The notes under the pieces: model-generated
Database searches by the model: none
What the model was told of the DNA's origin: nothing
What the model saw: the letters and a program-made list of their open reading frames with translations, nothing else
Assembly (NCBI GenBank): GCA_951801675.1
Contig: CATONX010000002.1
Location: 129,038-193,037 of the forward strand
Length of the DNA stretch: 64,000 nt
Origin: an uncultured Eubacteriales bacterium
Lineage (GTDB): Bacteria > Bacillota > Clostridia > Oscillospirales > Acutalibacteraceae
Direction: 5' to 3'
Shown: piece after piece, positions 2,182 through 17,008 of the stretch
Position numbering within the stretch: the first letter of the stretch is position 1
Layout of the letters: every line of letters begins with the position of its first letter
Made by a program: the position numbers and the translations under genes

Positions 2182-3420
2182 TTATCCCAAGGGAAGAACC
2201 GCCTGAAAGCACACGGCTCCTTCCCCTTCTTTTCGCGCCGAAATCCGTCCCTTGTGGGCCTCTACAACCGCTTTTGCCACCGACAGGCCGATTCCATACC
2301 CGCCGGTTTCTCTCGAGCGGGAAGCGTCCGCCCGGTAAAACCGGTCAAAAAGGGAATCCAGGTCGGGCGGAACCGGATCGCACGCGTTTTTGACCTCCAG
2401 CTTTGCATACTTTCCCTGTCCGGAAAGAAAAACCGAAATTTGACTTTCCGGCGACGCGTATTTCACCGCGTTATCCAGCAAAATGGATACCACCTGCCTG
2501 ACACCGCTTTCTTCTCCCTTCATGACCAGTCCCGGCTGGATGGACACAGACAGGGCCTTTTCCTGGCTTTGGGCCAGTGCGGCAAAGGATTGGGCGGTTT
2601 CCTCCACCGCGTCGCTGAGGACAAAGTCGGTAAAAGGAAGCGTTCCCGGTTCCTCCTCCATCCGCGACAAGGTCAGAAGGCTCTGCACCAACCCGCTCAG
2701 ACGCCTGACCTGGTTTTGGATGCTCTCGGTCCATTCGCTGGGGCCGCCGGTCAGTTCCAGCACTTCGGCATTGGCTGAAATGATGGCCAGCGGGGTCTTG
2801 ATCTCATGGCTCGCGTCGGTGATAAACTGCTTTTGTTTTTCCATGCTCTCGATAACCGGGCGGATGGCCCGCCGGGAGAGGAGGGAAACGAGCAAAAACA
2901 TCACCGCCAAGGTGGCTAGGGCAATCCCGCTGGAAAGCAGCAGCAGCGAAAGAGAGGACTGCAGCTGGGTCCCCCGGTCGAGAAACAAAATCAGTGTTCC
3001 ATAGGCCTTTTCTTGGACGAAGTATTTGTATTGGTCCAGATACCCGCCGGTGCTGCCGCTTTCGAGGACCGTTTGGGCGTATTCCCTGGCCTTTGAAGAA
3101 TTTACCGCCGCGATATGCCCGGTATCGATCTGGCTGATGATCCCCTCCTGGTTTGTTTTCACGAGAAAGTACCGGGTTTCAAAAGGGGTTTCCTCGTTGA
3201 AATGAGCCGGGTTCGGTCCCATTCCTTTGGGTGGGCGTATTCCCCGGTCCAGTTCGGGGAACTTTCCCTCGTTTAGAGCCAGAAGAGTCAGGAGATTGTC
3301 CGCGTTTTGGTTCATCTGATAATAGGTCACGCCGTTTACCACCGCTAGGATCACCAGCAAAATGACAAAAAGGGACCCCATGGCAATGGCGATGAACTTG
3401 CGCTGCAGCCGCTTAATCAT
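2182..3420 (-). CDS. Sensor histidine kinase (two TM segments, HisKA + HATPase_c)
   Basis: H-box SHEIKTPL and N/G boxes (LLDNAVKY, GYGIGLSVAK). I chose the start MIKRLQRKF (ATG 3420), which overlaps the response-regulator stop as ATGATTAA. The 43 aa upstream of it in the ORF track lie inside the regulator gene. Confidence 0.85.
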   Translation of the reverse strand: MIKRLQRKFIAIAMGSLFVILLVILAVVNGVTYYQMNQNADNLLTLLALNEGKFPELDRGIRPPKGMGPNPAHFNEETPFETRYFLVKTNQEGIISQIDTGHIAAVNSSKAREYAQTVLESGSTGGYLDQYKYFVQEKAYGTLILFLDRGTQLQSSLSLLLLSSGIALATLAVMFLLVSLLSRRAIRPVIESMEKQKQFITDASHEIKTPLAIISANAEVLELTGGPSEWTESIQNQVRRLSGLVQSLLTLSRMEEEPGTLPFTDFVLSDAVEETAQSFAALAQSQEKALSVSIQPGLVMKGEESGVRQVVSILLDNAVKYASPESQISVFLSGQGKYAKLEVKNACDPVPPDLDSLFDRFYRADASRSRETGGYGIGLSVAKAVVEAHKGRISARKEGEGAVCFQAVLPLG

Positions 3421-4090
3421 TGCTTTCCTCCAACAGGTATCCCGCTCCCCGCACCGCCTTGATCTGCACGTTTGCCCCGATGCCGGACAATTTTTTGCGA
3501 AGAGAGGAAATGTATACCCATACCACGTTGATTTGGGCATCCGAGTCATAGCCCCAGATGCGCTCCATGAACTGCTCCGTGGAAACCAGCCGTCCTGGAT
3601 GGCGCAAAAGCATTTCGAGAATCTGGAATTCCTTGTTTCCCAGCCGGATGGCGCCCTCCTGCCCGGCGGCTTCGAAGGTGGCCCGGTTTAAAGTCAGGCT
3701 GCCGCAGGAAAGGGCGTCCGGGGAAAAATCCGTTCGCCGCCGCGTCATGGCCCGCACCCGGGCCAGCAGCTCGCCCATGGCGAAAGGTTTGGTCAGGTAA
3801 TCATCTGCGCCGCTGTCGAGTCCCAAAATCCGGTCGTCCACTTCCGAGCGGGCCGTCAGCATCAGCACCGGCGTGCTCACCCCGTTCTCCCGCAGCTCTC
3901 TGACCACGGTAAGCCCGTCCTTTTTTGGCATCATAATATCGAGAATGATCCCGTCGTAGTTCTCCGTCAGCCCATAGTCGCAGGCGTCCGCCCCATCGTA
4001 AACCGCATCCACGGAATAATGGTTGTGCTTTAAAATGGCGGTCAGCGCCCGGGACAGCTCCTTTTCATCCTCCGCAAGCAGCAGTCTCAT
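3413..4090 (-). CDS. OmpR/PhoB-family response regulator
   Basis: REC domain (LLAEDE...DGIILDIMMPKKDG...KPF) plus a winged-helix Trans_reg_C domain (LTNKEFQILEMLL...VWVYISSLRKKL). Confidence 0.9.
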   Translation of the reverse strand: MRLLLAEDEKELSRALTAILKHNHYSVDAVYDGADACDYGLTENYDGIILDIMMPKKDGLTVVRELRENGVSTPVLMLTARSEVDDRILGLDSGADDYLTKPFAMGELLARVRAMTRRRTDFSPDALSCGSLTLNRATFEAAGQEGAIRLGNKEFQILEMLLRHPGRLVSTEQFMERIWGYDSDAQINVVWVYISSLRKKLSGIGANVQIKAVRGAGYLLEESND

Positions 4091-5657: not shown

Positions 5658-6164
5658 TTATGCGTCGTTGCCGTTTTCCTGCGGCTGATATTCCAAGGCG
5701 ACCGGCGTCTCTTCTTCGGCTTGCACTTCGCGGTCAGTTGCCGCAGGGAGAGACGCGCCTGCGTTTGCCGTGCCGGTCGAAGGGGTTATGGTAGCTGCTG
5801 TGCTGCCTACTACTTGGGAAGTGCCCGCTTTTGCCGTCCGTGCGGCTTGCCGCTCGGTGCTGGTTTTGCCGGTCATGGCCGTCATGATAAAGTCACCGCC
5901 GTTATAGCTGGCAAAGGCGATTAACAATCCCTGTGTCAGGGAAGCGAACACTGCCATGAGCACGCTGGCCCAGTCGGTCAAAGTGACGGTAGAGAAGGTG
6001 TGTAGCGCACACAGAACCACCGAGCTGATGCCTACAATCAAAGGAATGCGGCACTCTTTTACCTTCATTTTCTGCAAGAACTTACGTACCGCATATAAGA
6101 CTGGAATGAGAATCAGCAACTCGGCCCGGACATATTGGTTGATTACATCGGAAATAAACTCCAT
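5658..6164 (-). CDS. Phage-type holin family protein (orphan)
   Basis: 168 aa: N-terminal half has 3 predicted TM helices (ELLILIPVLYAV..., IPLIVGISSVVLCAL..., VLMAVFASLTQGLLIAFA) and the C-terminal tail is hydrophilic and Ala/Thr-rich. Good RBS (GAGGGGG). The family call rests on overall resemblance only. Confidence 0.55.
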   Translation of the reverse strand: MEFISDVINQYVRAELLILIPVLYAVRKFLQKMKVKECRIPLIVGISSVVLCALHTFSTVTLTDWASVLMAVFASLTQGLLIAFASYNGGDFIMTAMTGKTSTERQAARTAKAGTSQVVGSTAATITPSTGTANAGASLPAATDREVQAEEETPVALEYQPQENGNDA

Positions 6165-6272: not shown

Positions 6273-6301
6273 TTGACAACATCCGGCAAAATGAATATAA
6301 T
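6273..6301 (+). promoter_or_regulatory. Consensus sigma-A promoter for tRNA-Pro
   Basis: TTGACA (6273-6278), 17-nt spacer, TATAAT (6296-6301), about 18 nt upstream of the tRNA 5' end. Confidence 0.65.
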
Positions 6302-6318: not shown

Positions 6319-6395
6319 CGGGGTGTAGCTCAGTTTGGTAGAGCGCTTGGTTCGGGACCAAGAGGCCATGGGTTCAAGTCCCGTCACTCCGACCA
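6319..6395 (+). tRNA. tRNA-Pro (anticodon CGG), CCA encoded
   Basis: Manual cloverleaf: acceptor stem CGGGGTG/CACTCCG, D-arm GCTC..GAGC, anticodon stem CTTGG/CCAAG with loop TTCGGGA, T-arm ATGGG-TTCAAGT-CCCGT, discriminator A, then CCA. Confidence 0.9.
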
Positions 6396-6404
6396 TTGTA
6401 GAAA

Positions 6405-6431
6405 GCCGTCGACTTTTGTCGGCGGCCTTTT
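6405..6431 (+). terminator. Terminator after tRNA-Pro
   Basis: 9-bp stem GCCGTCGAC / GTCGGCGGC with a TTTT loop, followed by CTTTT. Confidence 0.55.
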
Positions 6432-6479
6432 GCTATGTCTGTACTTATGCGGATTTAAGGGGCATTCAAAACAGTAAAG

Positions 6480-6501
6480 TCCTATAGTTACACCCGAAAG
6501 C
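6480..6501 (+). repeat. Direct repeat copy A (TCCTATAGTTACAC + degenerate tRNA-end-like CCGAAAG)
   Basis: The 14-nt sequence TCCTATAGTTACAC at 6480-6493 is identical to 7589-7602. Confidence 0.6.
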
Positions 6502-6568
6502 AAAATCGAGTGACAGGACCAAATTTTACTGATATAATTGAGTAAATAATATTTAAGAAGGTGTAGTC

Positions 6569-7513
6569 TTGATATGGATTGAGATGAGCCGGGATGATAT
6601 GCATGGCGGTGGCGAATGGGGATTTGCAAAATGTTTATGGTCTCCTGCATACAAGCAAGGAAAGCGAAACGGTTCATGGCTTTTCTGGAACAACATTTTG
6701 CGGGTTCAAAAAGAAGATGTAGTAATTCATTTGCGAGGTAAAGGGCATAAGGCTAATTTTGTTGGCTATTCAATTGCTGCAACAGATGGACACGAAACGC
6801 TAGAGCGACCGCCACAGGCTGGCATGTGGGGCTATGCAACCAGTTTTTTTCGAGTTTTACTAAAAGATTACCAAGAATTTGATGCTCCAATAAACCTACA
6901 TGACTTTTTTACTGTTCATAAAGAAGCACTGATTGCATATTTGCATAAATTTCAGACACCTCCTACCAACCGTTTTTTTGTACTTCAATCCAATCGTCTG
7001 CAATGTTTAAATGGCGCCTACCTTTCAAAATGTGACGAAGAACTGCTATCTTTGATCTTATGTAGAGAAGCTGAAAATAACTTAGCTGTTGTGTCTAGCC
7101 ATATTTCAACATCTGAAATATGGAGAAAAGTTAAACAAAGAGTAGGACAGACCCAATTTTCAGATGCAGTCAAAAAGAACTATCATTTTAAATGCTGCTT
7201 TCCTGGCTGTAAGGTTAACGATCCTAAGTTTTTAGTTGGGTCACATATTGCACGTTGGGTTGATAATCCTGATAAACGTGGTAGCATCTCAAATGGTCTT
7301 TGTCTTTGTGTACTACATGACAAAGCTTTTGAAAATGGCTATTTTTCGTTAGATGATGAGTTGCGTATAATCATCAGCCATAAAATAGAAATACAAGCTA
7401 GCAATGTTTTTATTGAGTATCTAAAACCATTCGAGTACAAAAAAATAGACTTTGCTGAAATTCTTCCAGATAAAGAATCTATAAAAGAGCATCGTTTTAG
7501 ATGTAAAGTATAA
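6569..7513 (+). CDS. Two-domain HNH_2-type endonuclease (candidate Type IV, modification-dependent restriction enzyme)
   Basis: C-terminal HNH_2 signature: CCFPGCKV...LVGSHIARW...NGLCLCVLHDKAFENGYFS. The N-terminal ~170 aa form a Trp-rich domain that I cannot assign. TTG start at 6569 (RBS GAAGGTG); alternative ATG at 6584. Confidence 0.8.
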   Translation: MIWIEMSRDDMHGGGEWGFAKCLWSPAYKQGKRNGSWLFWNNILRVQKEDVVIHLRGKGHKANFVGYSIAATDGHETLERPPQAGMWGYATSFFRVLLKDYQEFDAPINLHDFFTVHKEALIAYLHKFQTPPTNRFFVLQSNRLQCLNGAYLSKCDEELLSLILCREAENNLAVVSSHISTSEIWRKVKQRVGQTQFSDAVKKNYHFKCCFPGCKVNDPKFLVGSHIARWVDNPDKRGSISNGLCLCVLHDKAFENGYFSLDDELRIIISHKIEIQASNVFIEYLKPFEYKKIDFAEILPDKESIKEHRFRCKV

Positions 7514-7588
7514 GTTTAGTTTTTTTAATATTGTAAATACAGCTTGCCGATTGCCTCTAAACCATTGATATGACTGGGCTTCTCCAAA

Positions 7589-7610
7589 TCCTATAGTTAC
7601 ACTCCGACCA
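7589..7610 (+). repeat. Direct repeat copy B (TCCTATAGTTACAC overlapping a copy of the tRNA-Pro 3' end, CACTCCGACCA)
   Basis: Exact matches to 6480-6493 and to 6385-6395. It sits at the right-hand composition boundary. Confidence 0.6.
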
Positions 7611-7614
7611 AAAG

Positions 7615-7660
7615 AAAAAGCCCGGGAATCCGATTGAAATGCGGGTTCCCGGGCTTTTTT
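7615..7660. terminator. Bidirectional rho-independent terminator
   Basis: GCCCGGGAA / TTCCCGGGC stem (7620-7628 / 7646-7654), preceded by an A-run and followed by TTTTTT. Confidence 0.65.
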
Positions 7661-8053: not shown

Positions 8054-10609
8054 TTAAATCAGCCCCAGTTCCCTGGCTTTCAAAATAGCGTCCATGGCGT
8101 TATTCACGCCCAGCTTGCGGTAGGCCACGGCGGTGTGGCTCTTAATGGTGGGCAGAGACAGACCCGTTTGCTCACAGATTTCCGCGTTTTTGTAGCCCTT
8201 TGAGAGCATGCCAAGCACCATGGCCTGCTGCTTGGAGAGCTTCACCGGCTTGTCAGAGCGCATGAGGCTGGCCGTTACACCCTTGTGTTTGCGGGAAAAG
8301 GCGTGGCTGGCAAGGGTCACTTCCAGCACAAATTCCCGTTTGAGCGGGCCTTTGTAGCCCTCCTTGTCCACTTTGGCGGTCACCCGCTTGAGAATGGACA
8401 GAACAGAAGCCCCCTCGTCCGCTACAATCCGGATAAAGCCGTAGGGCTGTAAGAGTATAAGCGCTGTTTCCAGTGTGGAAATGGCGCCTTTTTTGTCCCC
8501 CTGGGCCCATTTGAGCGCCGCACACAGCGTAAGTGCCTCCGCTTCATCCAGCGGTCGGTTGAGGTTTTTCCCGAACTCCTCGAGCAGGCCGAGAATTCGC
8601 GCCGCCTGTTTTGTCTCACCCAGTACCAGATAGGCTCTGGCCGTAGTGAAGTGCTGGAAAGAACGGAAAAACTCAATGTGGTCGGTTTGGGTTACATAAT
8701 AGCGGTCGAGCCATTGGCGCGCGGCGGCTGCGTCGCCGTCCAACAACCGTAGCTTTGTTCGGTAAGCCGTCAGGTTGGGAAGGAAATACTGGGCGTGAGC
8801 ATCCACAAACCCGCAAAGCGCCTCCATGGCTTCCGCCGCTTCCCGGGTGCGTCCAAGCTGCCACAGGATGCTGTGCTGCAACACCATGACGCAGATGCGG
8901 CCGTCCGGTTTGCTTTCTTCGTTCAACAGGCTGAAGACCTCATTGTTCTGCGTGAGTGCCGCTTCCAGATGGCTGCGCTCGTATTCGAAGCAGACCAGGA
9001 TACCCGGACGCAGGTAAACCCACTCCGGGCCTAACAGCGGCGCGAAGGTATGGTCGATCTTCGACAGAATCCCCGGGTCCAGGGCGATTTCCGAGTAATC
9101 CCGGTTGCTGCGGTGCATGTAGGGCAGGTTGTGGGTAAAGGACGCAATATTAGTCGCAAGGCCCGCCTGGGTAAAGCTTTTGAGGGCTTTTCCAAACAGA
9201 TAATAGAGTTTTACCTGGGTTTTCAGGCTTTTGCGGTAATCCACGTGAAAAGCCAGCATGGCAAACTCCACAAACTCGTTGCCCGCGGCGGCGATGCGCG
9301 GCAGGTTACGGATAATCGCGTCCATGTGTTTGGCGTACTGCTCGTGGCGGCTGGTGAGGTAATAGTACCAGGCGTAAAGAACGTGTAGCACCGGCGCTTC
9401 CCGGGAGGCACGGGCGGACAGCTCTTGGGCAAAAAAGCCCCGCAGAAAGTCGGCGTAATCGGCTACGCCGTCCTTATGGCCCCGAAACAGAAAGAGAAAC
9501 AGGAAGGTGTCTATGCCCTTGTAGTCGCCGCTTTGAAACCAGAAGCGCAGGGCGCGGGTATAGTCGCTGTGATCGCGGTAGTAGTTGGCAGCCTCCTTGT
9601 AAAGCCCGCTCAGCTTCATTTCCGCCGCCGCTTTTTCCCGCAGAAAATCCTGGAACAGGTGGTGGTAGCGGTAGGTGTCCTCCCGCAGGCGGCTCAAAAA
9701 GCTGTTGGTGCGACTCAAATCTTCCATGACCGCCCGCGCATCCTCCCGGCCGGAGAGCCGCCTGGCCAGTTCCGGGTCGAACTCGTCCACGATGGAGGTT
9801 TTCAGGCAGAAATCCCGAAGGGCTGGATCCCAGCCGTTCCACAAGTGCTGCTCAAAGTAGGCTGAAAAGATGTAATGCCCGCCGCCCAGTTCGATCTGTC
9901 CGGACTTGGCGATGGCGTTGACGCCGATAGCCCAGCCGTCGGTCGCCATGTAGGCGAACTTCGATTCCTCCGGGGTAAGAAACCGCCCGAGGCTCCCGAA
10001 ATACCGCCGGATTTCGTCCTCGGTAAAGCGCAGCTGCTCGGGTGTGATGAGCTGGACCTCTTCGTCCTTAATCAGGAGCCGAAATTCCTCCGGAATGTCC
10101 CTGCGGGACAAAATCAGCGCGGCGAAGGAGCGGGGCAGCCGCCGGAGCACCGCGGGAAGGGATTTCAATATCTCGCCGTTTTCAATCAGGTGCATGTCGT
10201 CAAGCACCAGAGCGTACCGCCCAGTCCCGGGCAACAGCTCGGAAAGCAGGCGCACCATGTGCTCCACCGGCGTGGAAGTGAAGGAGGGGCTCCGGAGGAT
10301 TTTTTTCATGTTTTCGTTTTCTGGTTGGAGGGAAAAGATGCCGGCGGCCAGCTGCTTATAGAAAACCGACGGCGAATCGTCGTATTTGTCAAGTCCCAGC
10401 CAGACCACCTTGCGGTCGCAGGAGTGGAGCCACAGCAGGGTGGATACCGTCTTGCCGCTGCCCGCCGGAGCGCCCACGTAGACAAAAGAATGCTCCGCCG
10501 CCTTGTGAAACCGGCGCAGCAACTCCTGGCGTGGGGCACATACCTCCGGAAGCTCGGCGGGGGTGAATTTTTCATTCAGAAAAAGCAGGGCGTTTTGGGT
10601 GTCAGTCAT
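8054..10609 (-). CDS. MalT/LuxR-family STAND transcriptional regulator (P-loop NTPase + helical repeats + C-terminal LuxR HTH)
   Basis: 851 aa. Walker A GAPAGSGKT; Walker B LVLDDMH; long helical/TPR-like middle region; C-terminal GerE/LuxR HTH (LSKQQAMVLGMLSKGYKNAEICEQTGLSLPTIKSHTAVAYRKLGV). Confidence 0.85.
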   Translation of the reverse strand: MTDTQNALLFLNEKFTPAELPEVCAPRQELLRRFHKAAEHSFVYVGAPAGSGKTVSTLLWLHSCDRKVVWLGLDKYDDSPSVFYKQLAAGIFSLQPENENMKKILRSPSFTSTPVEHMVRLLSELLPGTGRYALVLDDMHLIENGEILKSLPAVLRRLPRSFAALILSRRDIPEEFRLLIKDEEVQLITPEQLRFTEDEIRRYFGSLGRFLTPEESKFAYMATDGWAIGVNAIAKSGQIELGGGHYIFSAYFEQHLWNGWDPALRDFCLKTSIVDEFDPELARRLSGREDARAVMEDLSRTNSFLSRLREDTYRYHHLFQDFLREKAAAEMKLSGLYKEAANYYRDHSDYTRALRFWFQSGDYKGIDTFLFLFLFRGHKDGVADYADFLRGFFAQELSARASREAPVLHVLYAWYYYLTSRHEQYAKHMDAIIRNLPRIAAAGNEFVEFAMLAFHVDYRKSLKTQVKLYYLFGKALKSFTQAGLATNIASFTHNLPYMHRSNRDYSEIALDPGILSKIDHTFAPLLGPEWVYLRPGILVCFEYERSHLEAALTQNNEVFSLLNEESKPDGRICVMVLQHSILWQLGRTREAAEAMEALCGFVDAHAQYFLPNLTAYRTKLRLLDGDAAAARQWLDRYYVTQTDHIEFFRSFQHFTTARAYLVLGETKQAARILGLLEEFGKNLNRPLDEAEALTLCAALKWAQGDKKGAISTLETALILLQPYGFIRIVADEGASVLSILKRVTAKVDKEGYKGPLKREFVLEVTLASHAFSRKHKGVTASLMRSDKPVKLSKQQAMVLGMLSKGYKNAEICEQTGLSLPTIKSHTAVAYRKLGVNNAMDAILKARELGLI

Positions 10610-11064: not shown

Positions 11065-11334
11065 ATGGTAATCACAGACAAGGTTTTGATCCGGTCGGGC
11101 CGGCAGCCGCCGGGGTACAAGCTGGAAACCCTTTCGTGGGTGAACGTTGAGGGCCTTTCGTCCGTCATCTATCAGGGGAAATTCCGCGTACTGTATTACG
11201 ACGTGGATTCCGGGGAGAAGGCCGTAGTCAACACGGAGATTTATGGGGTTTCTCCCCAAGGAAGGGCGGACGAACTGGCTACTGAGGAACGGGATGACCG
11301 GCTTTGCTTTTCCTCCACAGCATTTCGAAACTAA
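11065..11334 (+). CDS. Hypothetical small protein (89 aa)
   Basis: ORF followed by a strong terminator at 11368-11404; weak RBS (AAAGGTG). I recognise no family. Confidence 0.4.
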   Translation: MVITDKVLIRSGRQPPGYKLETLSWVNVEGLSSVIYQGKFRVLYYDVDSGEKAVVNTEIYGVSPQGRADELATEERDDRLCFSSTAFRN

Positions 11335-11367
11335 GATGCCATGAATGCAAATCCCGTCACGCTGGCC

Positions 11368-11404
11368 AAAGCGGATGTCCATATGGACATCCGCTTTCCT
11401 TTTT
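11368..11404 (+). terminator. Rho-independent terminator
   Basis: Perfect 12-bp palindrome GCGGATGTCCAT/ATGGACATCCGC followed by TTTCCTTTTT. Confidence 0.65.
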
Positions 11405-11766
11405 AAACTTATAATATCATTGATATAGCATCAATAAATGACTAAAAAGTAGCATGAGAGCACCTGCTATCTATTAATCAGACAATTTCTGCAAAATAAC
11501 GGGAAATTATTGAATTTTAGTAGAAATTATTCCTAATTTATGATAAAATAAAAATATAGATAAAGGTTGAAATCAGTGACAAAAGGTCATAAATATGATT
11601 TGTAAATCAGATCAAGAAGCAACAGAAAATATCGGTTGCCGCCAGAAAGAATGGAAAGAAGGATATGAGAATGGAGTGAACAAAAAATCAGAAAGAATGC
11701 CAATTCCTATGTTGGCACAATGGCTGTTGCCAAGGCTATAAAAATGAAACATTTGGAGGAATCACA

Positions 11767-12762
11767 ATGAAAAGATGGATATCCGTATTGCTGTCTGTAT
11801 TGCTTTTGTTAGGCCTCACTGGTATGACCACATTGGCAGCTGATGAAAATAAGAAAAACGGCTTGAAGACACTCGAATACCGAATTAATGAGAGCGAATG
11901 GCAGACCGTTCCCGATTTCACGGAGAACGGTACAGGGAACTCTTTTTCCGTTGAGCTTCTGCGTAGTGCACAAATACACAATGCGGTAGTAGAAATCCGG
12001 GCAACACCCATGGATCCGGAAAATAAAGTGGTCTCATATGACGGCCAAAATAAAATAACCATAGCAGATGGAGTTGTCCAGGGATCGCAGAGCCTTTCGG
12101 TTTTTGTCCGTGACAAAGACAAGGCGGACGAAATAGGGGCTGGTATCATGACGGTCGTCTCGTTCCTGGTTTCCCCCATCGATCCCGCTATCATTGAGTT
12201 TGCGGACAAGAACTTGTCCATTGTCTTTGACGGCGAGCGCTCTGGTACACAAAGCTACAACAGCCAAGGGGACATCAAGTTCATGCAGAACGAATCGGTA
12301 ATGCTGACAGTCAATAACACAGGTCATGATGATAAATCGCCCGCGGTAGGGGATGCGCGATGGAAATTCCTTGGGTTTACCATTGACGGAGAAGTTGTTA
12401 TGCCGTGGGATGCAAACTGCATGAGCTGGACTTTTCAGACCGATCATCTGAGTATTGGAAAGCACGAAATTGTAATTCGCTTTGTCCTGGAGACGTACCA
12501 AGAGGTTGTTGCAGACGAATCGGTTCCTGCAGATACACCTGCGTCATTTGCTTGGACGGAATATCTTGTGCAGGACGGCGGCTATGTGTTTACACATAAT
12601 ATTTGCGAAACCTTTACCGTTGAACAGCTGCCGGAGGAACCGGATGATACCGATAACCCGCCCACCGGTGCCGATGACGTTTTTGGGATTGTTCTTCTCT
12701 CCCTTCTTTCGGGCGCCGGAGCCTGTATGCTGCTCATCCGAAAGAGAAGATGTGTATCGTAA
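11767..12762 (+). CDS. Cell-wall-anchored surface protein with an NPPTG sorting signal
   Basis: Signal peptide MKRWISVLLSVLLLLGLTGMTTLAA. C-terminal NPPTG, then a hydrophobic stretch and an RKRR tail. GGAGG RBS. GC is lower than in the neighbouring genes. Confidence 0.75.
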   Translation: MKRWISVLLSVLLLLGLTGMTTLAADENKKNGLKTLEYRINESEWQTVPDFTENGTGNSFSVELLRSAQIHNAVVEIRATPMDPENKVVSYDGQNKITIADGVVQGSQSLSVFVRDKDKADEIGAGIMTVVSFLVSPIDPAIIEFADKNLSIVFDGERSGTQSYNSQGDIKFMQNESVMLTVNNTGHDDKSPAVGDARWKFLGFTIDGEVVMPWDANCMSWTFQTDHLSIGKHEIVIRFVLETYQEVVADESVPADTPASFAWTEYLVQDGGYVFTHNICETFTVEQLPEEPDDTDNPPTGADDVFGIVLLSLLSGAGACMLLIRKRRCVS

Positions 12763-13069: not shown

Positions 13070-13963
13070 CTATATTTGGTGATGAAATCCATAGCTTTTC
13101 CTTTCAGAGAGAACCTGTCTTGCAAACGCTGTTTCCTGATCCAACAAATCGACAAATCGACTGCATGCCTCATCAAAGGGCGTACAGTTGCCCTTTAAGA
13201 GCGCCGCCTTATAGAACCCGTTTTTTACCGCCAGCCAGTCCTCATAATAAGATTTTCTGAAAAACAAAGAGGCGCTTTCCACAGGAATTTTCCTTTGTTC
13301 TAAAAAATGCCGGTATAAATAGCGCCCGGTCAGCAACGCATCTGCAAACTTAGCGGGAAGCAGAGCGTTTTCCCCCGGCTCCTGAATGCAGGCGTTTGCC
13401 TGCGCGAGAAAATGACGGGAAGTTTTGGAATGGACCTTCACTACTTCCTGCGCCTGGGTGAGAAGCGCCTCGCTTTCCTCCCGATAAGGAGTAGAGATTT
13501 CCACTGTATGAATGGGAATGAGAACGAATGCGTGGACCACCAGTTCCTGGGCGGTCAGCGTTTGGTCATGAAAGCCGTAAGTAGGATCGAAGCAGAGCTG
13601 AGGATCCGCCGGCTTCTTTTGGACGATAAAATAGTGAGGACCGTGCAAAAGCTGATAGAGCGGGGTCCATGGAATTTGACAGGCATCCATGCCGGCGATT
13701 ATGTATCCACTGCTGGGGGTATTCATCCAGGCAATTTCCCGCTCCTCCTTTGTAACGCAAGGCGGCGCCAATACCATGCCCATGGATTCCAACGTTTCTG
13801 GCAGCCGCCGGGATAGAAACACCTGGCAAATCGGGTCATAGCGCAGATTGCCTTCCGCCCAAAGACGGGAAAAAGCACTGATATAGTCGAGCCCGAAAAA
13901 GTTTGCCAGCGTAATCAAACAGTCATGATAACAGTTGAGACCTTGAAAGTGGATAAGATTCAC
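13070..13963 (-). CDS. BtrH-like protein (BtrH_N papain/C39-like fold acyltransferase family)
   Basis: 297 aa, about the same length as BtrH. N-terminal Cys motif GLNCYHDCLITLANFFG. GTG start overlaps the ligase stop (GTGA). Family call is from pattern memory, not from a search. Confidence 0.65.
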   Translation of the reverse strand: MNLIHFQGLNCYHDCLITLANFFGLDYISAFSRLWAEGNLRYDPICQVFLSRRLPETLESMGMVLAPPCVTKEEREIAWMNTPSSGYIIAGMDACQIPWTPLYQLLHGPHYFIVQKKPADPQLCFDPTYGFHDQTLTAQELVVHAFVLIPIHTVEISTPYREESEALLTQAQEVVKVHSKTSRHFLAQANACIQEPGENALLPAKFADALLTGRYLYRHFLEQRKIPVESASLFFRKSYYEDWLAVKNGFYKAALLKGNCTPFDEACSRFVDLLDQETAFARQVLSERKSYGFHHQI

Positions 13964-15438
13964 AGCTGGGCATCCTCCTGCGCACGCCTGATCTTCCCCG
14001 TCGCTGTTTTTTCCAATTTCTCAACCAGCCGAATGCGGCGGGGACATTTATAATCCGCCAAATGCGTGGCACACCAGTGCTGGATGGACGCAGGCGTCAC
14101 CTCAGCAGTGGCCGCAACCACGTCGGCACCGACCCATTCGGTCCCCGGTTGATCCTCAAACCCGTACACCATACAGTCTGTTACAAGCGGACAGCTCTGC
14201 AGGCAGGTTTCCACTTCCTCTGGATAAACGTTGAACCCCCGGACGAGCAACATGTTTTTCTTTCGCCCGTAGATATAGAGATAGCCGTCGTTGTCAAAGT
14301 ATCCGATGTCCCCGGTGTGAAGCCAGCCGTCCCGTAGGATTTCCTGCGTGGCGGCTTCATCCCCATAGTAGCCCAGCATGACATTGGGACCCTGTGCTAC
14401 GATTTCGCCTGGCCGATTTGGCTCACTGGTTCGCCCCGCTTGCGTTTCCAGGCAAACCTTTACGCCGGGCAGAGGGACACCAACAGAACCCAGCTTATCG
14501 GGCGGCAGGCTTCGAAAGGGTTGCGCGATGAGGGGAGAAGCCTCGGTCATGCCGTAGCCGGACCAGAAGCGTATGCTGGGGAAAGCAGTGGACAGCCGCT
14601 CCAACGTGCCGTCCGGCACCTTGCTCCCGCCGAAGCCGAAATACCGCAGGGAGGAGATGTCGTATGGGATGGGGTGATTGCGTGTCCGGTCCATCAGAAC
14701 CGCCACAAGAGTCCCTCCGTCGTAGTGGCTGATTCCGTGCTCCTGCGCCGCACGGTAAAGAGTGTCCAACGTAAACCCCTGCGCCATCGGGAAAAGCGGA
14801 AATCCCCGCACAACACAGGAAAAGGAGACGAGCAGCCCGTAAATAGAACAAAGGGGTGTGCCAAGAGCATAGCGTACGGCAGGATCCTGGTATTTTTCGT
14901 ACCCCATATGCCTTAGGTAAGCATTGACATTGAAAGACACGTTGGCTTCAGAAAGCTGGACCAGCTTCGCGCGGCCCGTGGTTCCCGACGAAGCGAGCAA
15001 CAGCATGGGCGCGTTGGGGTCGGCCGCCTGTATGTCCGGCCAAGGCGGAGAAAGCGGAGGCAGCGTTTCCATATACCGGATCTGCGGCGTGCTTGCACTG
15101 CCTTCCACGGCCTTTTGGCAAAGCGGGCCCAGGGCTTCGCAGGTAATCACCGTTTGTACCGGCGCGCGCCCCAGCAAGTCGGACAGTTCGCCTGCGGTCA
15201 AATGGACGCTGAGAGGGAACGCGATCCATCCGGCCTGCACAATGGCAAACAGGGCGCAAAGAAAATCGCTGCCGTCGGCGAGAAGAATCGCGGCAACCGG
15301 CCGGTCTTTTTCCCGAGGTAAGACGGCTTGCAGCGCCGCAGCACGCTCTGCCAGTTGCGCGTAAGTCACCGGATGTTCCTCGCCCAGAACAGCGGGAAGG
15401 TCTTGGTTCCATCTTGCCAGCAAAGCGTCTCTAATCAT
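13960..15438 (-). CDS. ANL-superfamily adenylate-forming enzyme (acyl-AMP / acyl-carrier-protein ligase)
   Basis: Core motifs SSGTTGRAK, GYGMTE, TGD, GRKKNMLLVRGFNVYPEEVE and KTATGKIRR. ATG overlaps the ACP stop (ATGATTAG). Confidence 0.85.
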   Translation of the reverse strand: MIRDALLARWNQDLPAVLGEEHPVTYAQLAERAAALQAVLPREKDRPVAAILLADGSDFLCALFAIVQAGWIAFPLSVHLTAGELSDLLGRAPVQTVITCEALGPLCQKAVEGSASTPQIRYMETLPPLSPPWPDIQAADPNAPMLLLASSGTTGRAKLVQLSEANVSFNVNAYLRHMGYEKYQDPAVRYALGTPLCSIYGLLVSFSCVVRGFPLFPMAQGFTLDTLYRAAQEHGISHYDGGTLVAVLMDRTRNHPIPYDISSLRYFGFGGSKVPDGTLERLSTAFPSIRFWSGYGMTEASPLIAQPFRSLPPDKLGSVGVPLPGVKVCLETQAGRTSEPNRPGEIVAQGPNVMLGYYGDEAATQEILRDGWLHTGDIGYFDNDGYLYIYGRKKNMLLVRGFNVYPEEVETCLQSCPLVTDCMVYGFEDQPGTEWVGADVVAATAEVTPASIQHWCATHLADYKCPRRIRLVEKLEKTATGKIRRAQEDAQL

Positions 15439-15679
15439 GCAGCTCTCTCTCCTTTACTTTGGCTTCCACAAGGGCGATGAGCTGCCCTACCAGAAGACAG
15501 TCTTGCATCTGTGAAAGTGCAATCGTAATATGGTATCGCTCTTCGATAGCCAGAAGCATGCTTACAAACGAGAGGGAATCGAGGTGCAGGTCCTTGTACA
15601 GGTCGGTGGCTTCCGTGACCGGCACGCGCAGCACGTTTTCCTGGTCGATCAGTTGTACAATGCTATCCTTTACGGACAT
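15431..15679 (-). CDS. Acyl/peptidyl carrier protein
   Basis: 82 aa with the phosphopantetheine-attachment motif LHLDSLSFV. I chose the ATG at 15679 (GGAG 8 nt upstream) over the ORF-track GTG at 15688. Confidence 0.75.
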   Translation of the reverse strand: MSVKDSIVQLIDQENVLRVPVTEATDLYKDLHLDSLSFVSMLLAIEERYHITIALSQMQDCLLVGQLIALVEAKVKERELHD

Positions 15680-15699
15680 GACCGTCACTCCATTTCAGA

Positions 15700-15758: not shown

Positions 15759-16958
15759 TTACTCGATATAAATACCGCCGCTGATGGATGCAGGCAGGTA
15801 TTGTGACGGCTGCGAACCTTCCGCCGTGATGCCCATGATGATGGTTACCAGTGTTCCGGCCGGGAGCGGGATATTCAGACCCGTTATGCTGGCTCTGCGC
15901 AGGGTGTATTTCGGGATTTCCTCCGTACCCGTATACGGGGGAAAATACACGATGCTGTCTGCAAGTACGGTAAAGGTCAGGGTTTCGGTGGTTGCGATGG
16001 CCAGGCACATGAATGGACGTATGGTGACGTCTTCTTCCAGATACAGTGCCTGCCGGTTGGCGAATACGCCGTAGATGTTTTGCACCGTTCCATCAATAGG
16101 CATGACGAAAGAAGATGGGTACGAGCTGCTATCATCAATGGTAATGGTTCCGGACGCCCATTCGCCGGGGTCCAAAGACGTATAGTATCCATTGTCGCCG
16201 CCAAAGCCAGCGTAAGCGATTTGAGACGGTTCGCCGGTGGAATCCGTGCTAAGCGTTACGCCCGACGAACTTTGATTGGAATAGGAAAACGCGATGGTAG
16301 CGGCAACGGGGCCTTGGATTCCCTGCGGGCCAGGTATGCCCTGGATACCCTGTTCTCCCTGCGGGCCAGGCACGCCCTGGATACCTTGTTCCCCTTGCGG
16401 GCCGGGTTCGCCCTGTAGACCCTGTGGGCCCTGTACACCCTGCGGCCCTTGTGGACCCGGTTCGCCCTGTGGACCCTGCACCCCCGGTACCCCTTGAAGC
16501 CCGGTAGCGCCGGTCGCTCCGGTGGGCCCCTGCGGCCCGGCCGCACCCGTTACCCCTCTGGGAATGCGGAAATTCAGAAGACCTTGATTTGGGTCTCCTA
16601 CATCGATGACACTGGCTTCTTCCTCTGGTTCTCCTGTGGTCGTTGCGTTAATGAATAATCCACGCCCTGCTGCCCCATCCGCGCCCGCAGGCCCTTGCTC
16701 GCCCTGAGGACCCTGAGGGCCAGGAAATCCCTGCGGTCCCGCAGGCCCTTGCTCGCCCTGGGGCCCCTGCGGGCCGGGAGATCCCTGCGGCCCCGCAGGC
16801 CCTTGTTCGCCTTGGGGTCCCTGCGGCCCCGTCGGACCAGGTGTGCCGGAGCCGCACGGTGGAAAGCAGGGTGGCTGGGGTGGCCGGCACGCACACCAAT
16901 GACCAAAATCAGGCTGACAGGCGTCCCCAAAGCCTTCAGGCCAATCTCTATGAAACAT
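15759..16958 (-). CDS. Collagen-like (G-X-Y) surface/exosporium-type glycoprotein with a BclB/BclA-like C-terminal globular domain
   Basis: Two G-X-Y blocks and a Cys-rich N-terminus. The C-terminal ~180 aa resemble BclB-related domains ([16 protein letters not shown]...ISGGIYIE). Start MFHRDW at 16958 has AGGAGG 7 nt upstream. Confidence 0.85.
16308..16556 (-). repeat. Collagen G-X-Y coding repeat block 2
   Basis: Encodes [16 protein letters not shown]...[32 protein letters not shown], including a 36-bp tandem unit. Confidence 0.8.
16662..16853 (-). repeat. Collagen G-X-Y coding repeat block 1 (about three 54-bp tandem units)
   Basis: Encodes [16 protein letters not shown](S/F)P repeated about three times. 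Confidence 0.8.
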
Positions 16959-17008
16959 AAAATTACCTCCTGTTTTGGGAAGAGAGCATTTCAAATAGTA
17001 TCCCGATC

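What the first reader, a model, noticed from the sequence alone, without database searches (positions are those of the whole stretch)
6569..7513. Two-domain HNH_2 nuclease with an unassigned Trp-rich N-terminal sensor domain (candidate modification-dependent restriction enzyme)
The C-terminal third carries a clear HNH_2-type motif (GSHIARW...NGLCLCVLHDKAFENGYFS). This is the nuclease type found in ScoMcrA/TagI-like Type IV enzymes, where it is fused to a modified-base reader.

The N-terminal ~170 aa (GGGEWGFAKCLWSP...SWLFWNNILRVQKEDVVIHLRG...FVGYSIAATDG) have the feel of a small beta-barrel, PUA/EVE-like reader. I cannot assign them to a family.

The gene is a single cargo gene on a tRNA-linked islet, with no methyltransferase nearby. 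That is the expected context for a stand-alone Type IV defence nuclease, possibly with a new reader domain.
Basis: partly seen in the sequence, partly recalled or inferred. Interest (0 to 1): 0.65.

Follow-up and report, generated by a model that had tools for sequence, protein, structure and literature searches.

The report
Mobile EVE-HNH Type IV restriction cassette
The gene very probably encodes a stand-alone nuclease that cuts DNA carrying modified bases (a known kind of anti-phage enzyme, distantly related to VcaM4I), and it rides on a precise 1.2-kb single-gene cassette with no recombinase gene of its own, found inserted behind different tRNA genes in different gut bacteria.

Summary
ORF 6569-7513 (+, 314 aa, TTG start) has a C-terminal HNH_2 nuclease and a conserved Trp-rich N-terminal domain that Pfam and NCBIfam do not name.

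That domain is not a new fold. It is a divergent EVE (PUA-superfamily) domain:
- The whole protein aligns collinearly with VcaM4I, the solved 5mC/5hmC-dependent EVE-HNH enzyme (hhalign 99.1%; Foldseek top hit).
- The N-domain alone gives TM 0.6 and hhalign 95.6% against the VcaM4I EVE.
- Pocket residues Pro and Tyr and the catalytic His/Asp/acid are invariant. VcaM4I's cytosine-edge contacts are replaced by an HGGG-W loop, so the modification sensed is open.
- The same N-domain is fused to McrB-type NTPases elsewhere.
- Only 2 of 56 loci have a DNA methyltransferase within 3 kb.

The islet is a precise 1215-bp cassette (6396-7610) bounded by an 11-bp repeat of the tRNA-Pro 3' end:
- Sister strains show the exact empty site.
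- A ~98% identical cassette sits behind tRNA-Leu in another genome.
- Related cassettes form tandem arrays, one carrying a TIR defence gene.
- None encodes a recombinase.

Verdict: a new, uncharacterised member of a known kind (EVE-HNH Type IV enzyme), carried on a noteworthy mini-cassette.

The parts
6319..6395 (+). tRNA-Pro(CGG). Its last 11 nt (6385-6395, CACTCCGACCA) are the left copy of the target-site/att core. Its own promoter is TTGACA-17-TATAAT at 6273-6301.
   Evidence: ARAGORN; Rfam RF00005, 67 bits; promoter scan 12/12
6396..7610 (+). The 1215-bp mobile cassette: left module, one gene, right module. It is absent, precisely, from sister strains.
   Evidence: Empty site in L096/L098: the intergenic distance is 675 bp against 1890 bp, and the tRNA 3' end joins directly to window 7611 onward. 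The same cassette, 97.7% identical, follows tRNA-Leu in L007 with unrelated flanks.
6405..6426 (+). Cassette-borne terminator hairpin GCCGTCGAC-TTTT-GTCGGCGGC plus a T-run. It supplies a terminator for the tRNA after insertion and is conserved in related cassettes.
   Evidence: Terminator scan; conserved in L007, L008, L105, L107 and at the start of the second L012 cassette
6477..6493 (+). Inner box AAGTCCTATAGTTACAC, a degenerate copy of the right-end terminus that lies just upstream of the promoter.
   Evidence: Direct repeat D5 with 7586-7602, 94%; present in all related cassettes
6510..6538 (+). Cassette promoter GTGACA-17-TATAAT with a TG extended -10; the SD GAAGGTG follows at 6557-6563.
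   Evidence: Promoter scan 11/12 with TG; sequence
6569..7513 (+). [quoted passage not shown]
6569..7063 (+). N-terminal divergent EVE (PUA-superfamily) reader domain, aa 1-165. Signature: W3 (beta1), H12-G13-G14..W17, W24-S25-P26, D50, H54, P81-P82..W87, R95, G149-A150-Y151-L152. Putative base pocket: P26 (6644-6646), W87 (6827-6829), Y151 (7019-7021).
   Evidence: Domain model pLDDT 88, pTM 0.82. Foldseek: VcaM4I EVE prob 1.0, TM 0.58-0.60, followed by stand-alone EVE and ASCH proteins. hhalign against the VcaM4I group: 95.6%, E=1.2e-8. Signature kept in McrB fusions.
7064..7108 (+). Inter-domain linker, aa about 166-180; poorly predicted and variable.
   Evidence: pLDDT below 50 for residues 162-172 of the 309-aa model; variable columns in A1
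7109..7510 (+). HNH (beta-beta-alpha-Me) nuclease domain, aa about 181-314. The Pfam HNH_2 core is aa 209-262 (7193-7354). Catalytic residues: H226 (7244-7246), N242 (7292-7294), D251 (7319-7321), E255 (7331-7333). A Cys cluster C209/C210/C214/C245/C247 is probably a structural Zn site.
   Evidence: Pfam; PADLOC PDLC04132, E=2.7e-31; alignment to VcaM4I H224/N241/D250/D254; invariance; catalytic roles taken from PMC7897488
7534..7610 (+). Right-end module of about 77 nt, ending in a decayed tRNA-Pro 3' half (...TCCAAATCCTATAGTTACACTCCGACCA). Positions 7600-7610 are the right copy of the 11-bp core. Similarity between cassettes stops exactly at 7610.
   Evidence: Repeats D2 and D5; alignment of 10 copies from 6 genomes; boundaries
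7615..7659 (+). Host hairpin terminator, the native tRNA-Pro terminator, outside the cassette. In empty-site strains it directly follows the tRNA.
   Evidence: Inverted repeat I2, 18-nt arms, 94%; L096 sequence. The Rfam 'mir-7918' hit here (26.7 bits against a gathering score of 80) is spurious.

Best explanation

Inferred mechanism, by homology to VcaM4I:
1. The N-terminal EVE domain scans DNA, flips out a modified base and holds it in an aromatic/hydrophobic pocket (P26, W87, Y151).
2. Binding licenses the C-terminal HNH domain (H226 as general base; N242, D251 and E255 for the metal), probably acting as a dimer, to cut nearby.
3. The host needs no protecting methyltransferase because its own DNA lacks the mark, so invading DNA that carries the mark is destroyed.

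The exact modification is not determined. A 5-substituted pyrimidine such as 5mC or 5hmC is the default guess, but the residues that read the cytosine edge in VcaM4I are replaced, so it may differ.

The gene, its own promoter and a terminator form a 1215-bp cassette inserted exactly after the CCA end of tRNA-Pro. It encodes no recombinase, so it is presumably moved in trans by a tRNA-targeting integrase.

Shown here: the ORF, the domains, the homology, the conserved residues, the cassette boundaries, the empty site, multiple insertion sites and the lack of an MTase partner. Inferred: base flipping, modification dependence, the defence role and trans-mobilisation.
For: Homology to VcaM4I:
- Full-length collinear match: family profile against PDB, E=2.7e-12 over residues 23-278 versus 21-275; hhalign family against the VcaM4I group, 99.1%, E=5.8e-19, 231 columns; Foldseek top hit 6yex, E=9e-12, prob 1.0.
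- N-domain alone: Foldseek 6yex prob 1.0, TM 0.58-0.60, rmsd 3.1-3.9 over 140 columns, followed by EVE/ASCH proteins 2p5d, 2gbs, 1wmm, 5j3e; hhalign 95.6%.
- VcaM4I is experimentally a 5mC/5hmC-dependent, base-flipping EVE-HNH enzyme that restricts T4gt.

Conserved residues:
- VcaM4I W22-S23-P24 aligns with the invariant W24-S25-P26; NQAY130L aligns with NGAY151L, with the Tyr invariant.
- An invariant Trp (W87) sits in the loop that holds VcaM4I W82.
- Catalytic H224/N241/D250/D254 correspond to the invariant H226/N242/D251/E255.

Domain shuffling:
- The same N-domain, with the same signature, precedes AAA_5 McrB-type NTPases in at least 7 proteins, once alongside Mrr_N and a canonical Pfam EVE, and precedes a PF01844 HNH in another. 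EVE-HNH and EVE-McrB are established Type IV architectures.

Context:
- A DNA MTase lies within 3 kb in only 2 of 56 loci; neighbours are otherwise heterogeneous housekeeping genes.
- Gene GC is below flank GC in nearly all loci.
- A sister cassette in L012 carries a TIR defence effector.
- PADLOC HNH model, E=2.7e-31.

Cassette.

Weak sign of expression: contigs identical to parts of the gene in 4 metatranscriptome runs.
Against: - There is no biochemical or genetic test.
- Identity to VcaM4I is only 19-24%. By sequence alone the N-domain is barely assignable: PDB profile E=0.38 to 2p5d, and Pfam EVE in 1 of 28 members at E=0.02.
- The VcaM4I residues that read the cytosine Watson-Crick edge (Q10, T11, E15) lie in a segment that does not align, and the wedge Q128 is an invariant Gly here. 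The ligand could therefore differ, or in principle not be DNA.
- The position aligned to VcaM4I W82 is Y89 (314-aa numbering; Y84 in the alignment), which is not invariant. Equating W87 with W82 requires a 2-residue loop shift.
- The linker that autoinhibits VcaM4I is poorly predicted here.
- Two homologues sit next to or near C5-methyltransferases (L041, L035).
- The Pfam neighbour scans list only the top 25 families, so single weak MTase hits could be hidden.
- Metatranscriptome contigs can contain DNA.
Confidence: 0.75

Rival explanations
1. It is an EVE-HNH Type IV enzyme, but with a specificity different from VcaM4I's 5mC/5hmC, for example 6mA, 5hmU or a hypermodified phage base. This is a sub-variant of the best explanation rather than a contradiction of it.
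For: The N-terminal segment carrying VcaM4I's cytosine-edge contacts (Q10/T11/E15) does not align and is replaced by a nearly invariant H-G-G-(G)-x-W loop. Wedge Q128 becomes an invariant Gly. The PUA-superfamily enzyme ScoA3V is stimulated by 6mA, and TspA15I-group enzymes also cut 5hmU DNA. Two homologues coexist with C5-MTases nearby.
Against: The stacking residues Pro and Tyr and a loop Trp are kept, as in the 5mC/5hmC pocket. Nothing points positively to any other particular modification.
Confidence: 0.35
2. The HNH protein is a selfish homing-type endonuclease. It would cut at or near tRNA gene 3' ends and so drive the spread of its own one-gene cassette; defence would not be its function.
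For: The cassette holds one gene and no recombinase, yet it is inserted precisely after the CCA of tRNA-Pro or tRNA-Leu in at least six genomes. PUA-superfamily domains can bind tRNA (general knowledge, not tested here).
Against: Cassettes with the same end modules carry unrelated cargo (a TIR protein, and a 214-aa ORF) and no HNH, so the ends do not depend on this protein. Only 5 of 62 genome loci plus the window are tRNA-adjacent. The att-like repeats, including a 56-nt repeat in L008 and a decayed tRNA 3' half, are what site-specific recombinases leave. There is full-length homology to a proven MDRE. The N-domain is shared with McrB systems.
Confidence: 0.05
3. It is the endonuclease of a classical methyltransferase-protected (Type II-like) system and cuts unmodified DNA.
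For: The second PADLOC hit, PDLC03546, is labelled 'Type II restriction enzyme' (E=3e-20, HNH region only). L041 has an adjacent C5-MTase.
Against: The cassette holds a single gene. There is no MTase within 3 kb in 54 of 56 loci. An unprotected nuclease acting on unmodified DNA would be lethal. The reader domain is of the EVE type.
Confidence: 0.03
4. It is an RNA-directed or abortive-infection effector: the EVE domain would read a modified RNA base (for example in tRNA) and the HNH would cut RNA, or cut DNA indiscriminately once triggered.
For: EVE-like domains also read modified RNA, and some Type IV-like systems (CoCoNuTs) are predicted to target RNA (papers listed; PMC7641849).
Against: The closest homologue binds and flips bases in DNA. 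The HNH_2 domain is that of DNA MDREs. No RNA-related partner domains or genes are present.
Confidence: 0.04
5. It is a phosphorothioate-dependent ScoMcrA/SprMcrA-like enzyme.
For: NCBIfam NF045808 'PT-DNA_restrict' hit, E=9e-14.
Against: The score is 51 bits against a cutoff of 180 and covers only the HNH region (aa 189-292). The N-domain is EVE, not a sulfur-binding domain.
Confidence: 0.02

Closest known systems
VcaM4I / TspA15I / CmeDI group of EVE-HNH modification-dependent restriction endonucleases (PDB 6yex; PMC7897488, PMC6765204)
   Same: - Same size (309 vs 314 aa) and the same order: N-terminal EVE, linker, C-terminal HNH_2. The homology is collinear (hhalign 99.1%).
- The W-S-P and N-x-A-Y-L pocket motifs and the catalytic His/Asn/Asp/acid are conserved.
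- It is a solitary gene without a methyltransferase.
   Different: - Only 19-24% identity, against 46-50% among the characterised members, so this is a separate family (658 hits in the word-indexed search; 477 N-domain representatives).
- The N-terminal strand and loop that contact the cytosine edge (Q10/T11/E15) are replaced by an HGGG-W loop, and wedge Q128 is Gly.
- There are five invariant Trp residues.
- The HNH carries a CCx3C...CxC cysteine cluster that VcaM4I lacks and that resembles TagI's.
- The linker is shorter and poorly ordered in the model.
- No member has been characterised.
TagI (SRA-HNH, PDB 6ghs)
   Same: A two-domain MDRE with a PUA-superfamily reader plus HNH. The HNH has CxxC...CxC cysteines like this protein (alignment). 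Foldseek E=1e-3 over the full length.
   Different: Its reader is an SRA domain. Here the N-domain matches EVE structures, and TagI does not appear among the domain-only hits.
EVE-McrB proteins of McrBC-type Type IV systems (PMC7641849)
   Same: The very same N-domain subfamily, with the same invariant signature, is the N-terminal module of AAA_5 McrB-like NTPases.
   Different: There the effector is a GTPase motor plus a separate McrC nuclease. Here the nuclease is fused in one small protein.
Integrase-less, att-flanked elements that accrete in tandem at tRNA genes (cis-mobilisable elements, CIMEs, described in streptococci). This is recalled from my own knowledge, not checked in the literature here.
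   Same: Direct repeats of the tRNA 3' end at both borders, no recombinase, tandem arrays that share att-like sites, and a precise empty site.
   Different: The unit is very small (about 1.2 kb, one gene). Each unit has its own terminator and promoter module, which is reminiscent of integron cassettes. The cargo is of defence type. The same cassette is found at tRNA-Pro and at tRNA-Leu.

Membership tests
EVE-HNH modification-dependent restriction endonucleases (VcaM4I/TspA15I kind) | N-terminal domain with the EVE (PUA-superfamily) fold | tested here: met
   Foldseek on the domain model: VcaM4I EVE prob 1.0, TM 0.58-0.60, followed by 2p5d, 2gbs, 1wmm/2hd9, 5j3e, 2eve. hhalign 95.6%, E=1.2e-8.
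EVE-HNH modification-dependent restriction endonucleases (VcaM4I/TspA15I kind) | C-terminal HNH beta-beta-alpha-Me nuclease with the catalytic His, Asn and two acidic residues | tested here: met
   Pfam HNH_2, E=1.6e-7. H226/N242/D251/E255 align with VcaM4I H224/N241/D250/D254 and are invariant in 42 sequences.
EVE-HNH modification-dependent restriction endonucleases (VcaM4I/TspA15I kind) | Hydrophobic pocket for the flipped base: Pro and Tyr (VcaM4I P24, Y130) | tested here: met
   P26 and Y151 align to P24 and Y130 and are invariant, also in the McrB-fused copies.
EVE-HNH modification-dependent restriction endonucleases (VcaM4I/TspA15I kind) | Stacking Trp of the pocket (VcaM4I W82) | tested here: inconclusive
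   hhalign puts W82 opposite Y89 (314-aa numbering; Y84 in the alignment's 309-aa numbering), which varies (Y/H/F/S). The invariant W87 lies 2 residues upstream in the same flexible loop. No structural superposition with coordinates was possible.
EVE-HNH modification-dependent restriction endonucleases (VcaM4I/TspA15I kind) | Cytosine Watson-Crick-edge contacts (Q10, T11, E15) and wedge Q128 | tested here: not met
   The first ~22 residues do not align. The loop is H12-G13-G14-x-x-W17 instead, and Q128 corresponds to the invariant G149.
EVE-HNH modification-dependent restriction endonucleases (VcaM4I/TspA15I kind) | No cognate methyltransferase next to the gene | tested here: met
   Among 294 neighbouring ORFs in 55 loci plus the window, PF00145 occurs only in L041 (adjacent) and L035 (2.2 kb away). 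Caveat: only the top 25 families per scan are listed.
EVE-HNH modification-dependent restriction endonucleases (VcaM4I/TspA15I kind) | Cleavage stimulated by modified bases; restriction of phage with modified DNA | not testable with these tools
   Needs expression and assays.
EVE-HNH modification-dependent restriction endonucleases (VcaM4I/TspA15I kind) | Dimerisation through the HNH domains and autoinhibition by the linker helix | not tested
   Only a monomer was modelled, and the linker has pLDDT below 50.
TspA15I sequence group proper (46-50% identity among characterised members) | Close sequence similarity to TspA15I, VcaM4I or CmeDI | tested here: not met
   19-24% identity. phmmer E=1.8e-6, in the HNH region only. 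This is a separate family.
Pfam EVE (PF01878) | Match above the gathering threshold | tested here: not met
   No hit for the window protein; 1 of 28 members hits at E=0.02. VcaM4I-group proteins also carry only PF13391 in the precomputed annotation, so this test has little power.
Phosphorothioate-dependent restriction endonuclease (NCBIfam NF045808, ScoMcrA-like) | Score at or above the 180-bit cutoff, with the sulfur-binding domain | tested here: not met
   51.2 bits, aa 189-292 only.
SRA-HNH (TagI) | SRA-type reader domain | tested here: not met
   The domain-only fold search returns EVE/ASCH/YTH-type structures and no SRA structure.
tRNA-targeting integrative element | Insertion at a tRNA 3' end, flanked by direct repeats, with a demonstrable empty site | tested here: met
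   11-bp repeat at 6385-6395 and 7600-7610; 56-nt repeat in L008; empty site in L096/L098 with an exact 1215-bp difference.
tRNA-targeting integrative element | Encodes its own integrase or recombinase | tested here: not met
   The cassette contains only the HNH ORF, and the same holds in L007, L008, L105, L107 and L010. It is therefore non-autonomous.

The most novel reading that the evidence does not exclude
Two linked possibilities are not excluded.

(a) This EVE subfamily, with its HGGG-W loop in place of the cytosine-edge contacts, may read a DNA modification that no characterised EVE-HNH or McrB reader is known to sense. That would give a Type IV enzyme and McrB family with a new specificity.

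(b) The carrier may be a previously undescribed class of miniature, promoter-bearing, recombinase-less defence-gene cassettes. These share a ~77-nt pseudo-tRNA end module, hop between tRNA-Pro and tRNA-Leu 3' ends in gut Clostridia, and accrete into arrays, working as an integron-like shuttle for single defence genes.
Probability: 0.25. Interest if true: 0.65.

Novelty: new member of a known kind. Interest (0 to 1): 0.4.

Why it matters
Type IV enzymes are both phage-defence genes and laboratory tools for mapping modified bases. This family is widespread: 658 homologues were found, across Clostridia, Akkermansia, Chloroflexi, Acidobacteria, Proteobacteria, Planctomycetes, Bacteroidetes and Paenibacillus. 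No member has been characterised.

Its reader keeps the base-stacking pocket of VcaM4I but has a different base-edge loop, so it is a sensible candidate for a new or altered specificity. The same reader also serves McrB systems.

The carrier cassette is a clean natural example of how a single defence gene moves between genomes. It offers an exact empty site, two different tRNA targets and tandem arrays with other defence cargo. That makes the mobilisation mechanism directly testable.

Tried and rejected
- **Sequence-only assignment of the N-domain.** Pfam, NCBIfam and a PDB profile search gave nothing significant. A single-sequence hhalign reached only 70% over 32 columns. Assignment needed the structure model and a profile of the VcaM4I group.
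- **Phosphorothioate (ScoMcrA-like) reading.** Rejected: 51 of the 180 bits required, in the HNH region only.
- **Type II pairing.** Rejected by the neighbour census. The recurrent 'methyltransferase' hits are tRNA_U5-meth_tr/TRAM RNA enzymes, and the one NPPY-motif ORF (L014) was not followed up.
- **Empty site by exact DNA pattern in JGI metagenomes.** Two scans returned 0 hits. SNPs in the flank explain this. The empty site was found instead through the neighbouring 168-aa protein.
- **Repeat of the tRNA 3' end downstream in L007, L013, L049 and L052.** None of 9 nt or longer, so long flanking repeats are not universal.
- **Carriage on known plasmids or phages.** Only ~27% identical relatives on Bacillus megaplasmids and partial HNH hits in three phages.
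- **Rfam over the islet.** Only the tRNA, plus a spurious sub-threshold miRNA hit on the host terminator.
- **Expression.** Metatranscriptome contigs match parts of the gene, but contig data cannot exclude DNA carry-over, so this is not counted as proof.
- **Correction to my running count.** The tRNA-adjacent, same-strand, within-250-bp loci are 5 of 62 (L007, L008, L013, L049, L052). With the window that makes 6 of 63, not the 7 I stated earlier. L105 and L107 were added later.
Full report
**Numbering.** Residues are given for the 314-aa ORF that starts at the TTG at 6569. Alignments A1 and A2 and the structure models start at the ATG at 6584, so their numbers are 5 lower.

**1. The observation**

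The ORF 6569-7513 (+) exists and is 314 aa long. It has an SD (GAAGGTG, 6557-6563) and a near-consensus extended -10 promoter (GTGACA-17-TATAAT with TG, 6510-6538). Homologues conserve M[IV]W[IL]EM ahead of the first ATG, and public gene callers report the same 314-aa product on 17 contigs, so the TTG start is right.

Pfam HNH_2 matches aa 209-262 (E=1.6e-7). A PADLOC 'HNH' model matches aa 173-309 (E=2.7e-31). The N-terminal ~165 aa get no Pfam or NCBIfam name but are conserved along their whole length in 658 homologues of 311-330 aa, with invariant Trp, Pro, Asp and His positions.

tRNA-Pro(CGG) lies at 6319-6395. GC drops to 0.34-0.42 over the islet, against about 0.57 in the flanks.

**2. 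What the N-terminal domain is**

The best solved-structure match of the whole protein is 6yex. The literature identifies 6yex as VcaM4I, an EVE-HNH endonuclease that flips 5mC/5hmC into a pocket formed by P24, W82 and Y130. Its EVE domain is 1-147, its autoinhibitory linker helix 148-178 and its HNH 179-309, with catalytic H224, D250 and D254 (PMC7897488).

Whole-protein evidence:
- A profile of 42 family members aligns to 6yex in one stretch, 23-278 against 21-275 (E=2.7e-12).
- An AlphaFold model (pLDDT 84) finds 6yex first (E=9e-12, prob 1.0), then TagI, then stand-alone EVE/ASCH proteins.
- The full-length profile-profile comparison gives 99.1%, E=5.8e-19, and is collinear.

N-domain alone:
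- Sequence methods are weak. The PDB profile reaches only 2p5d at E=0.38, Pfam EVE appears in 1 of 28 members at E=0.02, and single-sequence hhalign gives 70% over 32 columns.
- A domain-only model (pLDDT 88, pTM 0.82) matches the VcaM4I EVE best (prob 1.0, TM 0.58-0.60, rmsd 3.1-3.9 Å over ~140 columns, 23-24% identity), followed by 2p5d, 2gbs, 1wmm/2hd9, 5j3e and 2eve.
- A profile-profile comparison with 34 VcaM4I-group proteins gives 95.6%, E=1.2e-8, over 122 columns.

The VcaM4I group itself carries only PF13391 in the precomputed Pfam annotation, so a missing Pfam EVE hit means little. Bell et al. noted that many defence-context EVE domains are detectable only with sensitive methods (PMC7641849). 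The domain is therefore a divergent EVE, not a new fold.

**3. Residue mapping**

- VcaM4I W22-S23-P24 corresponds to the invariant W24-S25-P26.
- N127-Q128-A129-Y130-L131 corresponds to N148-G149-A150-Y151-L152. The Tyr is invariant, and the wedge Gln is an invariant Gly here.
- VcaM4I W82 aligns to Y89 (Y84 in the alignment numbering), which varies. The invariant W87 lies two residues upstream in the same loop, which is flexible in VcaM4I. W87 is also kept in the McrB-fused copies while Y89 is not, so W87 is the likelier equivalent.
- Catalytic H224/N241/D250/D254 correspond to the invariant H226/N242/D251/E255.

Two differences stand out. The first ~22 residues, which in VcaM4I hold the cytosine-edge contacts Q10, T11 and E15, do not align; here there is a nearly invariant H12-G13-G14-x-x-W17 loop. 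The HNH also has a C209-C210-x3-C214 ... C245-x-C247 cluster that VcaM4I lacks and that resembles the Cys pattern of TagI. It is probably a structural zinc site (inference).

**4. The same reader in other effectors**

The N-domain profile finds 477 representatives at E≤1e-3 among 1.84 billion proteins. In many of them the domain lies inside longer proteins. Seven that were tested carry an AAA_5 McrB-type NTPase downstream. One of these (P0249) also has Mrr_N and a canonical Pfam EVE. Another protein (P0203) has a PF01844 HNH.

These copies keep the family signature W.E / HGG..W / C.WSP / D.V.H / G.S / PP....W / YR..L / G.YL. A module shared between single-chain HNH enzymes and McrB motors is what is expected of a Type IV specificity domain (PMC7641849).

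**5. Genomic context of the family**

The family occurs in many phyla. The gene's GC is below its flanks' in nearly all loci.

Among 294 neighbouring ORFs within 3 kb, in 55 loci plus the window, the neighbours are heterogeneous housekeeping genes. A DNA methyltransferase (PF00145) appears only in L041 (adjacent) and L035. The recurrent 'methyltransferase' is an RNA m5U enzyme. This agrees with Lutz et al., who found that PUA-type endonuclease genes are rarely near MTase genes.

**6. The islet is a discrete mobile cassette**

*Boundaries in the window.* The tRNA 3' end CACTCCGACCA (6385-6395) recurs at 7600-7610.

*Empty site.* Contigs from sister strains (L096, L098) have the same neighbours (MalT-like regulator, holin-like protein) but no HNH gene. 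The intergenic distance is 675 bp against 1890 bp, a difference of 1215 bp. The intact tRNA-Pro runs straight into the window's right flank. The cassette is thus 6396-7610.

*Other insertion sites.*
- A 97.7% identical cassette lies immediately 3' of an intact tRNA-Leu(GAG) in another MAG (L007). Both flanks are unrelated, and its right end still reads CCACTCCGACCA.
- Related cassettes follow tRNA-Leu(GAG) in a third host (L105), tRNA-Leu(CAG) (L107, L013) and tRNA-Pro (L008). In L008 a 56-nt repeat (tRNA end plus hairpin) flanks a 1207-bp unit.
- In the wider census, 5 of 62 loci plus the window have the gene 174-240 bp downstream of a same-strand tRNA, including a Rhizobium and a Bipolaricaulota genome. 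By my rough estimate, well under 1% would be expected by chance.

*Cassette anatomy.* Each cassette has a left module and a right module. The left module is a terminator hairpin (6405-6426), a box (6477-6493) and the promoter. The right module is ~77 nt (7534-7610) ending in a decayed tRNA-Pro 3' half. It is conserved in 10 copies from 6 genomes, and similarity stops exactly after GACCA.

*Arrays.*
- In L010 the right-module repeat flanks the gene on both sides.
- In L012 three copies bracket the HNH cassette and a second cassette. The second one opens with the same hairpin and box and carries a 400-aa TIR protein (Pfam PF10137, E=1.4e-24; PADLOC 'Effector TIR', E=1.4e-28) plus a small cupin.
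- L008 also has a second cassette.

No cassette encodes a recombinase. The simplest reading is a non-autonomous element mobilised in trans by a tRNA-targeting integrase, with tandem accretion (inference).

**7. Expression**

Contigs identical to parts of the gene occur in four gut metatranscriptome runs. This is weak evidence, because DNA carry-over cannot be excluded.

**8. Interpretation**

The best-supported explanation is a stand-alone EVE-HNH Type IV restriction endonuclease (confidence about 0.75). It would work like VcaM4I by base flipping into a Pro/Trp/Tyr pocket followed by HNH cleavage.

Membership in the EVE-HNH kind is supported for fold, architecture, catalytic residues and two (probably three) pocket residues. 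Membership in the TspA15I sequence group proper is not: identity is 19-24%, and the base-edge contacts are not conserved.

The sensed modification is therefore open. About one chance in three that it differs from 5mC/5hmC seems fair.

Rivals are disfavoured for the reasons given in their entries: a homing endonuclease driving its own cassette, a Type II nuclease, an RNA-directed effector, and a phosphorothioate-dependent enzyme.

**9. Novelty and score**

EVE-HNH MDREs are known and structurally solved, so the protein is a new, uncharacterised member of a known kind. The hoped-for new reader fold is not there, and interest in the protein itself is moderate.

The extra value lies in the precise one-gene cassette, which encodes no recombinase: it has a demonstrable empty site, two tRNA targets and arrays that include another defence gene. 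Overall interest is 0.4.

Noticed in passing
L012:3816-5837: A second cassette sits directly after the HNH cassette. It starts with the same terminator hairpin and box and ends with the same ~77-nt right module. It carries a 400-aa TIR-domain protein (Pfam CAP12/Pycsar-effector TIR, E=1.4e-24; PADLOC Effector TIR, E=1.4e-28) and a 135-aa cupin. The cassette type is therefore not specific to the HNH gene.
   Followed up: partly
L008:10782-11627: Another small cassette follows the HNH cassette behind tRNA-Pro. It has a 214-aa ORF (only a weak DUF4160 hit) and its own copy of the right-end module (11598-11616 plus TGACCA).
   Followed up: partly
L010:2283-2361 and 3405-3490: Here the HNH gene is flanked on both sides by ~75-nt copies of the right-end module and is not next to a tRNA. 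Upstream lies a ParB_N-domain protein. This suggests insertion into, or recombination between, existing att-like sites.
   Followed up: no
P0249 (1013 aa): This McrB-type protein has three putative reader modules in a row before the AAA_5 NTPase: Mrr_N (28-104), this EVE-like subfamily (228-382) and a canonical Pfam EVE (413-544).
   Followed up: no
L001:9256-10035 (-): In the context of the 68%-identical homologue P0021, the gene downstream of the HNH gene is a 232-260-aa protein with weak TIR / nucleoside 2-deoxyribosyltransferase-like hits (PADLOC Effector TIR, E=4e-5; Pfam PF05014, E=1e-4). It may be a second defence gene.
   Followed up: partly
L041:11028-12221 and L035:10869-12722: These are the only two homologue loci with a C5 cytosine DNA methyltransferase within 3 kb; in L041 it is adjacent. 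If the family sensed 5mC in all sequence contexts this would be a conflict, which makes these loci worth checking for the specificity question.
   Followed up: no
window 7615-7660: The Rfam 'mir-7918' hit (26.7 bits against a gathering score of 80, E=0.005) falls on the host terminator hairpin and is spurious.
   Followed up: yes
window 15759-16994 (-): A 411-aa ORF contains long collagen-like G-P-Q/G-E-Q triplet repeats followed by a globular C-terminal part, resembling BclA-type exosporium or surface proteins (read from the translation only).
   Followed up: no
window 11250-12000: A second GC trough (0.37-0.38) lies just upstream of and into ORF 11767-12762 (331 aa, with a signal-peptide-like N-terminus and a hydrophobic C-terminal tail). 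It may be another acquired segment.
   Followed up: no
window 13960-15688 (-): A 492-aa ORF resembling an AMP-dependent adenylating enzyme is followed by an 85-aa ORF resembling a carrier protein, which suggests a small non-ribosomal or lipid-tailoring module. This is judged from the translations only.
   Followed up: no
window 5658-6164 (-) and 8054-10609 (-): The cassette's immediate host neighbours are a 168-aa protein with a weak Phage_holin_5_2 hit and an 851-aa MalT-like regulator (WHD_MalT, TPR_MalT, GerE). Both are present unchanged in empty-site strains.
   Followed up: yes
Run X6, contig 9: A mouse/gut metatranscriptome contig covers 7459-7610 with 10 differences and then continues CCAGGCTGAGCC, the flank seen in L007. 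The tRNA-Leu-site version of the cassette is therefore present in that sample.
   Followed up: no
Plasmid hits H1-H12: Bacillus thuringiensis and B. cereus megaplasmids encode ~27%-identical proteins covering 84% of the query, annotated only as 'HNH endonuclease'. They are probably a further EVE-HNH-like subfamily.
   Followed up: no
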